Assembly (NCBI GenBank): GCA_000004985.1
Contig: GG739256.1
Reading direction: 5' to 3' (one strand)
Source of the DNA: Naegleria gruberi
Lineage: Eukaryota
DNA length: 2,601 bases
Shown here: piece by piece, positions 1-2,601 of the stretch
Numbering within the stretch: position 1 is the stretch's first letter
Layout: every line of letters begins with the position of its first letter
Notes under the pieces: generated by a model
Databases searched by the model: none
Seen by the model: only the letters and a program-made list of their open reading frames with translations
Told to the model about the DNA's origin: nothing
Translations under genes and position numbers: made by a program

Positions 1-324
1 AAAGGGTGAGTGGTTTAAATCTCTTCTGACTGATGTTGAAGATGACGATGACGAAGAGGACGATGAAGGAGAGGATGATCTTCCTGTTGTTGTATTCCTT
101 CTTGATGAAGTAGATCTTGATGAAAAAGATGTTTTCTTATTATTATTGTAAGAAGTTGTTGATGATGATGAACCTCGTAAATAGGAATTAATTAGTGAAG
201 ATGAGAACTTATTCACTTGTTGACCAAGTAACTTCGAAGCTGATGATGCATCAACAATGACTTGTTGCTTCTTGGAAAAAATTCCGCAATTGAAAGTGAT
301 TGGGTTGAGAATAAATTTCTTCAT
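1..324 (-). CDS. N-terminal part of a Ser/Thr/Arg/Asn-rich low-complexity protein (3'-partial, continues beyond window start)
   Basis: ATG at complement(322..324) in an A-rich context (aaaaaaATGaag). All 108 codons are open to position 1: MKKFILNPITFNCGIFSKKQQVIVDASSASKLLGQQVNKFSSSLINSYLRGSSSSTTSYNNNKKTSFSSRSTSSRRNTTTGRSSSPSSSSSSSSSTSVRRDLNHSPF. The ATG coincides with a sharp switch to extreme AT-richness at 325. It is absent from the ORF track only because it has no in-window stop. Caveat: the antisense plus frame (2..151) is also open and reads as an acidic D/E tract, so the strand is not certain. Confidence 0.5.
   Translation of the reverse strand, partial: MKKFILNPITFNCGIFSKKQQVIVDASSASKLLGQQVNKFSSSLINSYLRGSSSSTTSYNNNKKTSFSSRSTSSRRNTTTGRSSSPSSSSSSSSSSTSVRRDLNHSPF
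31..78 (-). repeat. imperfect trinucleotide (TCN)n / antisense (GAN)n tract encoding poly-Ser (SSSPSSSSSSSSSTS)
   Basis: On the minus strand 16 consecutive codons are TCA/TCT/TCG/TCC/CCT/ACA. The plus strand shows gatgacgatgacgaagaggacgatgaaggagaggatgat. Shorter (GAT)3 at 161..169 and (TTA)3 at 137..145 lie nearby. Confidence 0.6.
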
Positions 325-544
325 TTTTTTAATATTTTACTTTTTTCAATATATTCCACAAAATAATTGAAAATATTTTCGAAATTATTAAATATTTCAA
401 ATAAATATGAATTGAATTTATAATTTGATTTTTTTTATTGGATAACATCAATAAAAGATTTTTTCGTATTTTCTAAAGATGGAAATTGTCTTTTTTGATA
501 ATTTGTTATATTGGCAGATACTAATCAAAAAAAAATAGATCAAC
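325..544. promoter_or_regulatory. AT-rich intergenic region, putative divergent promoter (for the minus-strand gene starting at 324 and possibly for the plus ORF at 545)
   Basis: The region is much more AT-rich than its flanks. It contains poly(dA:dT) tracts (T7 at 324..330, T6 at 341..346, T8 at 429..436, T6 at 459..464, T6 at 491..496, A9 at 527..535), a TATAAT at 419..424, and GATAA motifs at 441..445 and 497..501. It sits directly 5' of the minus-strand ATG at 324. Confidence 0.5.
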
Positions 545-805
545 ATGATTCGAACGGTTTGCAAGTCAGTATACAACAAACGAATGGTTTCTCATTTGAA
601 AAGATCAATACAAAATAATTCTAAACGAAACTATTGTCAATCACAGTGTAAACTCTTCACACCAATCATTGTGGAGAGTGGATCATGTCTGGAAGGTTTC
701 TTTTCCAATACTAAACTTGAATTTGATATTGAAACTGGACAATTAATATCAGATTATCAAGATCCAAAACAAGTTTCGATTAATGGAACAAGAAATTACG
801 AATGA
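545..805 (+). CDS. hypothetical small protein (86 aa, 7 Cys); coding status doubtful
   Basis: A complete ATG..TGA ORF with A at -3 (atcaacATGa). Its composition is less AT-rich than the adjacent intergenic block and it has no homopolymer runs. I recognise no family motif. It overlaps nothing else, but it is convergent with and only 58 bp from the MFS stop, so it could equally be 3'UTR/intergenic sequence. Confidence 0.25.
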   Translation: MIRTVCKSVYNKRMVSHLKRSIQNNSKRNYCQSQCKLFTPIIVESGSCLEGFFSNTKLEFDIETGQLISDYQDPKQVSINGTRNYE

Positions 806-863: not shown

Positions 864-1397
864 TTATGCATCCTTGCTTTCTGTCAATTGGATATCTTTG
901 GTATCATTTTCCACGTTTCCATTTTGAGTTTCCTCTTCTTTCGTCTGCACATTTTCAACTCCTGCAACACTAATTGCCTTTTTTTCAGCTTCCTTCTTTG
1001 CTTTAGCAACAGCTCTCTTTGCAATAATATTTGGTGAAGTTTCCTCCAACAAGGTCGAATAAATAATAATTCCAATAAAAGAAAATCCAGCAAAAATAAA
1101 CCAAGGAACTGCCTGATTTGTCATTACAACAACAGGAATGAAAAACAATGAGAGAATAATTGAAGTTGACCACATGGCAATCGTGCTGATTGAAGTACCC
1201 AAAACGACAACCTTCTCATTCTCACCCCTAAAAACTTCATATGCCAAAACATAACCAAGTGAACCAACACCAACATGAAAACCTATTAAATACAAACAAT
1301 TGAACAAGAGAGCGAGGGCTACTTTGTAAACTTGTCCATTTTCTCCAAATTGAAAGATGAAACCTTCTGCAAGATCTGTTAAGAAACTGACAGTGAA
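864..1397 (-). CDS. MFS transporter, exon 2 (TM9 C-terminal half through TM12 plus Lys/Glu-rich C-terminal tail), stop TAA at 866..864
   Basis: The frame opens exactly at the acceptor (FTVSFLTDLAEGFIFQF...) and completes a hydrophobic TM9 begun in exon 1 (PLMIFG|FTVSFL...). Downstream motifs match the sugar-porter C-terminal half: GSLGYVLAYEVFRGENEK (cf. GPxPWxxxSExFPxxxR) and LLEETSPN (cf. PETKG...LEE). The track start at 1307..1305 is a TTG, not a true start. Confidence 0.85.
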   Translation of the reverse strand, partial: FTVSFLTDLAEGFIFQFGENGQVYKVALALLFNCLYLIGFHVGVGSLGYVLAYEVFRGENEKVVVLGTSISTIAMWSTSIILSLFFIPVVVMTNQAVPWFIFAGFSFIGIIIYSTLLEETSPNIIAKRAVAKAKKEAEKKAISVAGVENVQTKEEETQNGNVENDTKDIQLTESKDA

Positions 1398-1441
1398 CTA
1401 TTTGCGTATTGTCAATTAGATCTTTTAAATTCAGTACTTAC
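1398..1441 (-). other. spliceosomal intron (44 nt), phase 0, within TM9 of the MFS gene
   Basis: The minus-strand sequence is GTAAGTACTGAATTTAAAAGATCTAATTGACAATACGCAAATAG. It has a canonical GTAAGT donor, a CTAAT (CTRAY) branch-like element 18 nt before the 3' end, and a TAG acceptor. Its length is not a multiple of 3, which exactly accounts for the frame shift between the two large minus ORFs. The unspliced frame hits TGA 10 codons after the donor, and the downstream frame becomes open exactly at the acceptor AG. Confidence 0.8.
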
Positions 1442-2601
1442 CCCAAAGATCATGAGTGGCTTTCTTCCAAACTTATCAACAAGGAACATGGTTGGGAAGA
1501 TGCAAAATAATTGCCATACAGAAACACCTAGTGAAGCCAATTGCTGACCTAATGGATCAGAAACTCCGGCAGCCTCAATTAATGATGGTAAAAACATGAC
1601 TGAACTCTGAATACCTGTCCATTCCATAGCAAAACATCCCCAACAAGCTATAATAAGAGCCTTAATAACTTTGGAGCAGAATAATCTCTTGCAGGCAGCA
1701 ATGGTCGACATGGTTTTCTTCTTAATGGGTGGTTCTTCTGTTATTACTGGCATTTCTATCTCTGTGTTAGCTTCTCCAGATGGTTGTTCTTGTTGTAGTT
1801 TTGGTCTTTCTTGTTCATCAATTGGAGATTCATCTTGTTGAGTTTCAATATCAGCAGCATCTTGTTCTCTTTCCAATACTTCAGAGTCATCAATCGCGTC
1901 ATTATTGACATAGGCAGAACAAACATGAGGAAGAGTCTTTATCTGTTCTTCATCAGTGTTTCCCTCCACCACAGGACGATTTTCTGTTGGATTGGCTGCA
2001 TTTTGATTTGCAATGCCCACCTTTGATTCATCCATCTTTTGCTGATGTTTCTGTTTCAATTCCTCCTCATGATCATGATGACCACCATGAATAAACAATG
2101 GAGATTCAGGAATAATAAAAACAACCAAAACAAAAAGTGGAATGATAAATAAATTGTGGAAAGCATGAACAGCTCTCCACATTTCACTCGAACGAACAAA
2201 GATTGCCCCAAAGGCATATCCCCAACAAGTACCCAAACTAATACCCAAATTGAACATACTTCCCAATAATCCCATATATTTAGGGAATGGCATCAACTCG
2301 ACAACATACACCGAAGAAACTGCAGTGACAATTCCACTTCCAAAACCCAAAATGCATCTAAAGACAATCAATGTAGAATATTGATATGATGCAGCAGCTC
2401 CAATTGATCCAATAATTGAAATTAAACAACTGAGAATGATGGATAACTTTCTACCGAGTACAGATCCTGTAAACATGGCAAACAAACATCCAAACAATCC
2501 ACCAATAAAGATACTACTAGCAAACAATCCCTGTAATATAGTTGTATCAAGATTGAATGAACTATTAGTTGCAGTTTTGGTTGCATTTCCGTTCAGAGAG
2601 T
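1442..2601 (-). CDS. MFS transporter (sugar-porter-like, 12-TM type), exon 1, 5'-partial (continues beyond window end)
   Basis: The frame is open from 2599 down to 1442. The track 'M' at 2527..2525 is a TTG codon, and upstream residues (SLNGNATKTATNSSFNLDTTILQG) continue without a stop and contain NAT and NSS sequons typical of the extracellular TM1-TM2 loop. Hallmark MFS motifs are present: G-x3-G-x-LGRK after TM2, R-x3-GFGSG-x9-Y-x2-E-x2-P in TM4, PESP after TM6, and D-K-F-G-R-K before TM9. Multiple hydrophobic helices are evident. The exon ends with ...LMIFG immediately before GTAAGT. Confidence 0.85.

What the first reader, a model, noticed from the sequence alone, without database searches (positions are those of the whole stretch)
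1..324. Edge-truncated Ser-rich ORF hidden from the ORF track, with an acidic antisense frame
A 108-codon stop-free frame on the minus strand begins with ATG in a strong A-rich context, exactly where the sequence composition switches from coding-like to extreme AT-rich. It encodes a Ser/Thr/Asn/Arg/Lys-rich, RS-like low-complexity N-terminus. The same DNA read on the plus strand (2..151, stop at 149..151) is an acidic DVEDDDDEEDDEGEDD tract, the classic TCN versus GAN sense/antisense ambiguity. The longer open frame, the positioned ATG and the adjoining promoter-like block favour the minus strand. The ORF track omitted it only because it lacks an in-window stop. Its identity is unknown. No hydrophobic signal peptide is apparent, so a nuclear or RNA-associated protein is more plausible than a cell-wall protein.
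Basis: partly seen in the sequence, partly recalled or inferred. Interest (0 to 1): 0.6.

Follow-up and report, generated by a model that had tools for sequence, protein, structure and literature searches.

The report
Start of a mitochondrial RNA helicase gene
The serine-rich open frame at the left edge of this small Naegleria gruberi scaffold is the real, unannotated start of a known DEAD-box RNA helicase gene that other data place in mitochondria, so it corrects a gene model rather than revealing a new kind of element.

Summary
The minus frame 324..1 is stop-free for 108 codons. It starts at an ATG in an AAAAAAA context where GC drops from ~0.35 to ~0.15. It is 31% Ser, and its antisense frame (2..151) is acidic.

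The window is an entire 2601-bp scaffold of Naegleria gruberi. Residues 71-102 of the minus frame are identical to an internal stretch of the N. gruberi "ATP-dependent RNA helicase" XP_002682839.1. That stretch runs straight into a DEAD-box core.

The reference model is a chimera. It joins the first ~245 aa of the neighbouring MFS transporter to the helicase and skips the true start, which this window supplies.

A motif RDYxPLTLxxPP directly after the Ser tract is conserved in N. lovaniensis and Willaertia magna. In the window its KPLTL part is one base out of frame, from a 1-nt deletion at positions 17/18.

The closest solved relatives are the mitoribosome large-subunit assembly helicases DDX28 and mt-LAF2. 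The protein is also listed in the published N. gruberi mitochondrial proteome.

The basic, acid-poor N-terminus is therefore most likely a mitochondrial presequence followed by a species-specific Ser-rich linker. It is not a nuclear RS domain. The plus frame is an antisense shadow. Ordinary; low interest.

The parts
322..324 (-). Start codon ATG of the DEAD-box helicase gene, in an AAAAAAA-ATG-AAG context
   Evidence: It is the first ATG after an in-frame stop. It is the only Met in the 108-aa frame. The next Met in the reference protein lies after motif I. The same A-run plus ATG context is present in W. magna and N. lovaniensis.
172..324 (-). Codons 1-51 (MKKFILNPITFNCGIFSKKQQVIVDASSASKLLGQQVNKFSSSLINSYLRG): basic, acid-poor N-terminus, proposed mitochondrial presequence. 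The boundary at R50-G51 is only a guess from an R-2-like motif.
   Evidence: The first 50 residues hold 7 K+R and 1 D+E. The best 18-residue amphipathic segment is at residues 33-50, with a hydrophobic moment of 0.52. The orthologs have equally basic N-terminal extensions. [quoted passage not shown]
19..171 (-). Codons 52-102: Ser/Thr/Asn/Arg-rich low-complexity tract (…SSSPSSSSSSSSSSTSVRRD). It is specific to N. gruberi and probably a disordered linker. Codons 71-102 are identical to residues of XP_002682839.1.
   Evidence: the tract is absent from the N. lovaniensis and W. magna orthologs. Imperfect 15-nt tandem repeats lie at 38..79 and 100..130.
2..16 (-). KPLTL, part of the conserved RDYxPLTLxxPP motif that precedes the helicase core. 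It is one base out of frame with the upstream codons because the window lacks one base at about 17/18 (reference GAT TAT AAA, window GAT T-T AAA).
   Evidence: One search places KPLTL at 16..2 in a second minus frame. One search gives the reference reading RRDYKPLTLLEPP. Searches show the motif conserved in N. lovaniensis and W. magna (BLASTP E=5e-7).
2..151 (+). Acidic antisense frame (…DVEDDDDEEDDEGEDD…, TAA 149..151): a non-coding shadow of the Ser codons
   Evidence: No hits in the representative library. No Pfam match. No Met in the frame. Lower codon-usage score than the minus frame.
325..544 (.). Extremely AT-rich spacer (GC about 0.15-0.17) upstream of the helicase ATG. It is presumed to hold the promoter and 5'UTR; this was not tested.
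   Evidence: Composition. Stops in all frames. No Rfam match.
864..2601 (-). Upstream neighbour on the same strand: an MFS sugar-porter gene, truncated at the 5' end by the scaffold edge. It has a 44-nt intron at 1398..1441 and a stop codon at 864..866. Its first part is wrongly fused to the helicase in the reference model.
   Evidence: 100% identity to XP_002668161.1, with Pfam Sugar_tr and MFS_1; the spliced CDS has a single terminal stop; the fusion point RCILG lies at 2359..2345.

Best explanation
Window 324..19 (minus strand) is the true 5' coding end, M1 to D102, of the Naegleria gruberi DEAD-box RNA helicase annotated as XP_002682839.1 / D2UZ55.

Shown:
- The frame is open.
- It starts at the only available ATG.
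- Its last 32 residues are identical to the reference protein.
- The reference protein continues through a conserved RDYKPLTLLEPP motif into a complete DEAD-box core (Q motif, AQTGTGKT, PTRELA, DEAD, HRVGRTGR).
- The reference model is a chimera of the upstream MFS transporter's N-terminus and the helicase.

Inferred:
- The chimera arose because this 2601-bp scaffold fills a gap in the 1-Mb scaffold.
- The window carries a 1-nt deletion 17-18 nt from its end.
- The helicase is the heterolobosean counterpart of DDX28 / mt-LAF2 and acts on the immature mitochondrial large-subunit rRNA.
- The N-terminal ~50 basic, acid-poor residues act as a matrix-targeting presequence that is cleaved after import.
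- The following ~50-residue Ser-rich tract is a disordered, N. gruberi-specific low-complexity insertion produced by repeat slippage.
- The acidic plus-strand frame is simply the antisense reading of TCN codons, with third positions coinciding.
For: - Identity of the window: it is N. gruberi, and the contig length equals the window length, 2601.
- Link to the helicase: P0010 contains STSSRRNTTTGRSSSPSSSSSSSSSSTSVRRD followed by the helicase. Pfam DEAD scores 108.9 bits and Helicase_C 93.3 bits, both above their cut-offs.
- Orthologs: proteins in N. fowleri, N. lovaniensis and W. magna are 46-57% identical to it. The RDYxPLTLxxPP motif is conserved in N. lovaniensis and W. magna.
- Start codon: the context is shared with the orthologs.
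- Codon usage: the minus frame scores 16.2 bits and the plus frame 6.8 bits over the shared 150 nt, trained on the window's MFS gene.
- Plus frame: no homologs.
- Closest solved structures: by single sequence the top hits are Leishmania 7am2_BW, T. brucei mt-LAF2 (7aoi_XB, 6yxx_EB) and human DDX28 (9hcc_z), at 132-140 bits against 127.6 for Vasa. By family profile DDX28 scores 267.7 and mt-LAF2 252.6, against 242.1 for DDX3X. DDX28 and mt-LAF2 are treated as counterparts in PMC8998825. DDX28 holds H80-88 of the 16S rRNA in the pre-39S particle (PMC8316566).
- Localisation: XP_002682839.1 is in Sheet 1, the putative mitochondrial proteome, of Supplementary Data 2 of PMC8134430. It has 7 unique peptides and 15.2% coverage, and its intensity rises towards the purest fraction.
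- N-terminal composition: 15 basic against 2 acidic residues.
Against: - A direct search with the 108-aa peptide found nothing, so the link rests on the 32-residue identity to one (mis-modelled) reference protein plus the motif conservation.
- The DNA of the 1-Mb scaffold could not be fetched. The gap-filling scenario and the 1-nt deletion are therefore inferred from protein sequence only.
- No targeting predictor could be run. In PMC8134430, TargetP gave 'S62' rather than mitochondrial, but that was on the chimeric N-terminus.
- The 7 peptides were matched to a chimeric model, and their positions are not given.
- The bit-score margin of DDX28/mt-LAF2 over DDX3X/Vasa is modest, about 10-25 bits.
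- There is one acidic residue at position 25, and the amphipathic moment is only moderate.
Confidence: 0.8

Rival explanations
1. The plus-strand acidic frame (2..151) is the real coding sequence: the C-terminal tail of a gene convergent with the MFS transporter. The Ser-rich minus frame would be its antisense shadow.
For: Acidic C-terminal tails are common. The frame is open from the window edge to TAA 149..151. In N. lovaniensis and N. fowleri the gene after the MFS cluster is convergent.
Against: - No homolog in 1.84 billion representatives and no Pfam hit.
- The convergent neighbours in the other species are unrelated and lack such a tail.
- The frame would have to run antisense through the conserved RDYKPLTL and Q-motif coding region of a helicase that is demonstrably on the minus strand.
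- With the base that the reference protein implies (GGTTTATAATC on the plus strand), a TAA falls immediately upstream of 'SLLTDVED'. That leaves a Met-less 44-codon ORF (inference).
- The codon-usage score is lower.
Confidence: 0.02
2. The minus frame is coding, but the N-terminal extension is a nuclear or nucleolar RS-like / low-complexity domain. The helicase would then work in the nucleus, as Prp28/DDX23 or the nucleolar DEAD-box proteins do.
For: The tract is Ser/Arg/Lys-rich. DDX23/Prp28, which carry N-terminal RS domains, are also significant PDB hits. Basic low-complexity regions can act as nuclear or nucleolar localisation signals (general knowledge).
Against: - There are only about 4 RS/SR dipeptides in 108 residues.
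- DDX23 scores 113 bits, against 132-140 for the mitoribosome helicases.
- The protein co-fractionates with mitochondria in the N. gruberi organelle proteome.
- The orthologs have short basic N-termini without any Ser/Arg tract.
Confidence: 0.1
3. The window copy is a non-functional allele or haplotig. On this view the frameshift at positions 17/18 is real, so this copy encodes only a truncated Ser-rich peptide and not the helicase.
For: In the window the Ser frame and the KPLTL codons are in different frames. N. gruberi small scaffolds can be alternative haplotypes (general knowledge).
Against: Both ends of the window are otherwise identical at the protein level to the reference model. The indel lies within 18 nt of a scaffold end, where read quality is lowest. 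The reference model lacks most of the MFS gene, which fits a gap that this scaffold fills rather than a second haplotype.
Confidence: 0.07

Closest known systems
Human DDX28, and yeast Mrh4 by general knowledge: mitochondrial DEAD-box helicase, 39S/54S mitoribosome large-subunit assembly factor
   Same: DDX28 is the best PDB match to the family profile (267.7 bits). The full DEAD-box motif set is present. The protein has an N-terminal extension ahead of the Q motif. It is experimentally associated with mitochondria (for Naegleria; PMC8316566, for DDX28).
   Different: - The Naegleria protein has a ~100-residue N-terminal extension with a poly-Ser tract and an RDYxPLTLxxPP motif. The DDX28 and mt-LAF2 alignments do not reach this region.
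- It has a ~90-residue insertion before RecA2.
- Motif III is ATY rather than SAT.
- Association with pre-ribosomes was not tested.
Trypanosoma brucei / Leishmania mt-LAF2 (PDB 7aoi_XB, 6yxx_EB, 7am2_BW)
   Same: These are the top single-sequence PDB hits (138-140 bits). Naegleria and the kinetoplastids belong to the same eukaryotic supergroup, Discoba. mt-LAF2 is regarded as the kinetoplastid DDX28 (PMC8998825).
   Different: The match is limited to the helicase core; the N- and C-terminal extensions do not align. No structural or biochemical data exist for Naegleria.
Canonical N-terminal mitochondrial matrix-targeting presequences
   Same: The segment is N-terminal, net positive and nearly free of acidic residues. 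It is rich in hydroxylated residues and has a moderately amphipathic segment. Other N. gruberi mitochondrial-proteome proteins show similar K/S/N/T-rich N-termini. One of them, DNA polymerase I, also has a following Ser/Asn-rich tract.
   Different: It is unusually long if the whole 102 residues are counted. The cleavage site is unknown. No predictor or import assay was run.
RS domains of SR proteins and DDX23/Prp28
   Same: Ser- and Arg-containing low-complexity N-terminus on a DEAD-box helicase.
   Different: It lacks runs of RS/SR dipeptides (about 4 in 108 residues) and is dominated by poly-Ser, Thr and Asn. The helicase core is closer to the organellar helicases than to DDX23.

Membership tests
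DEAD-box RNA helicase (SF2) | RecA1 and RecA2 domains matching Pfam DEAD (PF00270) and Helicase_C (PF00271) above the gathering score | tested here: met
   DEAD scores 108.9 bits (cut-off 26) and Helicase_C 93.3 bits (cut-off 23.5). This was run on the reconstructed protein, which joins the window N-terminus to the P0010 helicase part. The domains lie outside the window.
DEAD-box RNA helicase (SF2) | Conserved motifs Q, I (AxTGxGKT), Ia (PTRELA), II (DEAD), III (SAT), V, VI (HRxGRxGR) | tested here: met
   Read from P0010 and alignment A1: TPSSIQ; AQTGTGKT; APTRELA; VLDEAD; TDIAARGLD; HRVGRTGR. Motif III is the variant F-A-T-Y.
DEAD-box RNA helicase (SF2) | The window's minus frame is physically continuous with the helicase coding sequence | tested here: met
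   There is a 32-residue identity between window codons 71-102 and P0010, followed by KPLTL at 16..2. Continuity needs a 1-nt correction at 17/18. The DNA of the large scaffold could not be fetched.
DDX28 / Mrh4 / mt-LAF2 mitoribosome LSU assembly helicases | Closer in sequence to this clade than to other DEAD-box subfamilies | tested here: inconclusive
   The top 4-5 PDB hits are DDX28, mt-LAF2 and the Leishmania homolog, by both phmmer and profile search. The margin over DDX3X/Vasa is only 10-25 bits, and no phylogeny was made.
DDX28 / Mrh4 / mt-LAF2 mitoribosome LSU assembly helicases | Mitochondrial localisation | tested here: met
XP_002682839.1 is listed in the putative mitochondrial proteome (Sheet 1, Supplementary Data 2, PMC8134430) with 7 unique peptides. 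Caveat: the entry is the chimeric model.
DDX28 / Mrh4 / mt-LAF2 mitoribosome LSU assembly helicases | Binds immature mt-LSU rRNA in pre-ribosomal particles | not testable with these tools
   This needs pull-down or cryo-EM of Naegleria pre-mitoribosomes.
Mitochondrial matrix-targeting presequence | N-terminal, net positive, almost no acidic residues, rich in Ser/Thr | tested here: met
   The first 50 residues have 7 K+R, 1 D+E and 9 S+T. The first 102 have 15 K+R, 2 D+E and 42 S+T.
Mitochondrial matrix-targeting presequence | Amphipathic helix and an MPP cleavage motif (R-2 / R-3) | tested here: inconclusive
   The best 18-mer hydrophobic moment is 0.52, at residues 33-50. 'YLRG/SS' at residues 48-53 fits an R-2 pattern by eye only.
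Mitochondrial matrix-targeting presequence | Predicted by TargetP or MitoFates, or shown to direct import | not testable with these tools
   No predictor was available. The published predictions were made on the wrong (MFS-derived) N-terminus and returned 'S62'.
RS domain | Dense consecutive Arg-Ser / Ser-Arg dipeptides | tested here: not met
   There are about 4 RS/SR dipeptides in 108 residues. The tract is mainly poly-Ser, Thr and Asn.

The most novel reading that the evidence does not exclude
The most novel reading the evidence allows is an annotation-level one. The reference N. gruberi model XP_002682839.1 is an MFS-helicase chimera created across an assembly gap. This orphan scaffold restores the helicase's true N-terminus, which carries a mitochondrial presequence. 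After it come a lineage-specific poly-Ser linker and a heterolobosean-specific RDYxPLTLxxPP motif of unknown role. That would identify the Naegleria counterpart of DDX28/mt-LAF2, and explain why targeting predictors missed a protein that proteomics places in mitochondria.
Probability: 0.65. Interest if true: 0.2.

Novelty: already known. Interest (0 to 1): 0.15.

Why it matters
The value is mainly in curation.

- It separates two wrongly fused N. gruberi genes, an MFS sugar porter and a DEAD-box helicase.
- It supplies the helicase's missing start codon and about 70 unannotated N-terminal residues.
- It reconciles a proteomic mitochondrial assignment with a failed in-silico targeting prediction.
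- It illustrates that Ser-rich and acidic sense/antisense ambiguities can be settled by what lies just beyond a contig edge.

It opens no new biological question.

Tried and rejected
- Direct homology search with the 108-aa minus peptide: no hit at E<=0.1. Low complexity masks the 32-residue identity to P0010.
- Exact look-up of P0010 to fetch the 1-Mb scaffold DNA: not on record. The same result was obtained for the N. fowleri ortholog P0121 and for the ORF 545..805 product.
- Scan of JGI metagenome contigs for relatives of the N-terminal 183 aa: 354 pattern matches, none confirmed.
- Synteny in N. lovaniensis and N. fowleri: the MFS cluster there is followed by an unrelated convergent gene, so synteny gave no help and briefly pointed the wrong way.
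- The near-identical ENA metagenome contig L003 stops about 240 nt past the MFS stop and does not reach the finding.
- Third-position periodicity cannot separate the two frames, because their third codon positions coincide. A synonymous-codon score was used instead; it is weak, being trained on only 563 codons. My first two codon tables used wrong intron coordinates and were discarded.
- Rfam: no RNA family in the window.
- tblastn of the three window peptides against the fetched Naegleria and Willaertia loci: only low-complexity noise.
- The bacterial promoter/terminator scan was not used, because the organism is a eukaryote.

Full report
**What is in the sequence**

The window is AT-rich and eukaryotic in style. 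Translating 324..1 on the minus strand gives 108 codons without a stop, beginning MKKFILNPITFNCGIF… and ending …SSSPSSSSSSSSSSTSVRRDLNHSPF. An in-frame stop lies five codons upstream of the ATG. The ATG sits in an AAAAAAATGAAG context.

GC falls from 0.31-0.36 over 1..300 to 0.15-0.17 over 301..525. The peptide is 31% Ser, with 15 basic and 2 acidic residues. The plus frame 2..148 reads …DVEDDDDEEDDEGEDD… and ends at TAA 149..151.

The ORF tool omits ORFs that run off the source, which explains why this frame was missing from the track. Only 15 of 5000 shuffles of bases 1..324 produced an open run this long.

**Where the window comes from**

The large minus-strand ORF on the right is an MFS sugar-porter gene. 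It has one 44-nt GTAAGT…TAG intron at 1441..1398 and a stop at 864..866.

Searching its spliced product gave a 100% match to 'predicted protein, partial [Naegleria gruberi]' (XP_002668161.1). The longest contig carrying that protein is 2601 bp, so the window is a whole small scaffold of the N. gruberi NEG-M assembly. It therefore cannot be extended leftwards within its own record.

**The link to a helicase**

The same search returned P0010, the N. gruberi 'ATP-dependent RNA helicase' XP_002682839.1 / D2UZ55. It is 857 aa long and lies on a 1,001,995-bp scaffold. Its sequence has three parts:
- It starts with the N-terminal ~245 residues of this MFS transporter, ending …STLIVFRCILG (window 2359..2345).
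- It then has eight residues, LEGGSSLQ, that are not encoded anywhere in the window.
- It then reads STSSRRNTTTGRSSSPSSSSSSSSSSTSVRRD, identical to codons 71-102 of the finding's minus frame, followed by YKPLTLLEPP… and a complete DEAD-box helicase.

The junction falls right after an AG at window 117-116. The reference model therefore splices artefactually into the middle of the helicase's first exon. Pfam DEAD and Helicase_C both pass their gathering scores, and the Q, I, Ia, II, V and VI motifs are present.

The reference model is a chimera. The most economical reading is that the 1-Mb scaffold has a gap over most of the MFS gene and the helicase start, and that this orphan scaffold fills it. 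That is an inference, because the large scaffold's DNA could not be fetched.

**A one-base problem at the edge**

The reference reads RRD-Y-KPLTL. The window reads GAT TTA AAC CAC TCA CCC TTT (D-L-N-H-S-P-F), with KPLTL encoded at 16..2 in another minus frame. Restoring one A (GAT TAT AAA CCA CTC ACC CTT) reconciles the two.

The motif RDYxPLTLxxPP is conserved in the orthologs from N. lovaniensis (RDYEPLTLKEPP) and Willaertia magna (RDYTPLTLLDPP) (BLASTP E=5e-7). The reference frame is therefore the biological one. The deletion, 17-18 nt from the scaffold end, is most likely a read-end error. A real frameshift allele is a minor rival.

With that base restored, the plus strand would read …GGT TTA TAA TCT CTT…. 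This places a stop immediately upstream of the acidic frame and leaves it a Met-less 44-codon ORF. That too is an inference.

**Which strand is coding**

Several lines beyond the helicase continuity favour the minus strand:
- The plus peptide has no homolog among 1.84 billion representative proteins and no Pfam match.
- Over the shared 150 nt, a synonymous-codon score trained on the window's own MFS gene gives 16.2 bits for the minus frame and 6.8 for the plus frame. This evidence is weak but consistent.
- Third positions of the two frames coincide, so periodicity alone cannot separate them.

ATG 324 is the only Met before helicase motif I. The same A-run plus ATG context precedes the W. magna start (MKKLLVSPQ…) and an upstream in-frame ATG in N. 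lovaniensis (MMKTLFGN…).

**What the protein does and where**

Against all PDB sequences, the best matches to the single sequence are the Leishmania and T. brucei mitoribosome assembly helicases (7am2_BW; mt-LAF2 7aoi_XB and 6yxx_EB) and human DDX28 (9hcc_z). They score 132-140 bits, against 127.6 for Vasa. With a profile of the heterolobosean family, DDX28 is first at 267.7 bits and mt-LAF2 next at ~252, against 242 for DDX3X.

A review equates DDX28 with mt-LAF2 (PMC8998825). In the human pre-39S particle, DDX28 binds domain V of the 16S rRNA and keeps helices H80-88 of the central protuberance immature (PMC8316566).

Independently, XP_002682839.1 is listed in Sheet 1, the putative mitochondrial proteome, of Supplementary Data 2 of Horváthová et al. 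2021 (PMC8134430). It has 7 unique peptides and 15.2% coverage, and its abundance rises towards the purest fraction. The authors' best BLAST hit was a plant RH39-like helicase.

Their TargetP result for this entry was 'S62', that is secretory. This is what one expects when the model's N-terminus is a transporter's first transmembrane region rather than the true start.

**How the N-terminal region most likely works**

The first ~50 residues are basic (7 K/R), carry one acidic residue, and include a moderately amphipathic stretch at 33-50. The orthologs all have basic, acid-poor N-terminal extensions of 40-60 residues before the RDY motif.

Other N. gruberi mitochondrial-proteome entries show the same K/S/N/T-rich N-termini. 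One of them, DNA polymerase I, also has a Ser/Asn-rich tract behind it.

I therefore propose the following layout:
- Residues 1 to ~50 form a matrix-targeting presequence. A possible R-2 cleavage site lies at LRG|SS, judged by eye only.
- Residues ~52-102 form an N. gruberi-specific disordered Ser-rich linker. It is built from imperfect 15-nt repeats and is absent from the orthologs.
- The conserved RDYxPLTLxxPP motif leads into the helicase core.

Import and cleavage are inferred, not shown. There are only about four RS/SR dipeptides, DDX23 is a weaker match, and the proteomics points to mitochondria.

**Verdict**

The finding is real, and its interpretation (minus-strand N-terminal exon with an antisense acidic shadow) is correct. 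What it uncovers is ordinary: the unannotated start of a known DEAD-box helicase gene on an orphan scaffold, and a chimeric reference model. Novelty is at the level of gene-model correction, and interest is low.

**Limits**
- There is no DNA for the large scaffold.
- No transcript data were available.
- No targeting predictor was available.
- Subfamily assignment rests on score ranking, not phylogeny.
- The positions of the proteomic peptides on the chimeric entry are unknown.

Noticed in passing
window 545..805 (+): There is an 86-aa ATG ORF (MIRTVCKSVYNKRMVSHLKR…) in the spacer between the helicase start and the MFS stop. Its GC is ~0.31, against 0.15-0.17 in the adjacent 325..525. The only Pfam match is below cut-off (APP_N, 20.2 bits against 22.1), and it is not on record as a called gene. 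In the near-identical metagenome contig L003, a 2-nt insertion near window ~798 lengthens the ORF to a TAA about 7 nt from the MFS stop. It could be a small gene divergent from the helicase, or just MFS 3'UTR.
   Followed up: partly
window 864..2601 (-), intron 1398..1441: The MFS sugar-porter gene has a 44-nt intron. It also has a long (roughly 150-aa) acidic/His-rich insertion (HGGHHDHEEELKQKHQQ…EEPPIKKK) in the central part of the protein. It is annotated only as 'predicted protein, partial' (XP_002668161.1). Its missing N-terminus sits in the chimeric XP_002682839.1.
   Followed up: partly
reference protein P0010 residues ~246-253; no counterpart in window: Eight residues, LEGGSSLQ, in the reference chimeric model are not encoded in any frame of the window. 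The model re-enters at window 115, just after an AG at 117-116. This suggests a mini-exon drawn from sequence at the edge of an assembly gap.
   Followed up: partly
L004 3950..4270 (N. lovaniensis ortholog locus): The N. lovaniensis model C9374_012154 probably starts too late. An in-frame upstream ATG (MMKTLFGNTMIRKVPII…) follows an A-run. The model also reads through a frame change between …HHEVKEG and …DKFFSFHFDPS, giving a stretch (FSSAAKATDSIIIGMALINSF…) that does not align with the orthologs. The N. fowleri model P0121 lacks the N-terminal extension altogether.
   Followed up: partly
L001 4449..13550 and L002 6826..16073: In N. lovaniensis and N. fowleri the MFS gene is one of three tandem paralogs. 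These are followed by a convergent, Pfam-less gene with an acidic N-terminus. The helicase ortholog lies on another contig, between a glyoxalase gene and an RGS gene. The MFS-helicase adjacency in N. gruberi is therefore not conserved.
   Followed up: partly
L003 (ENA ERZ929261, contig k127_327558, 2537 bp): An environmental metagenome contig carries the same MFS gene at 97% protein identity, and nearly identical downstream DNA. This indicates a close N. gruberi relative in that sample.
   Followed up: no
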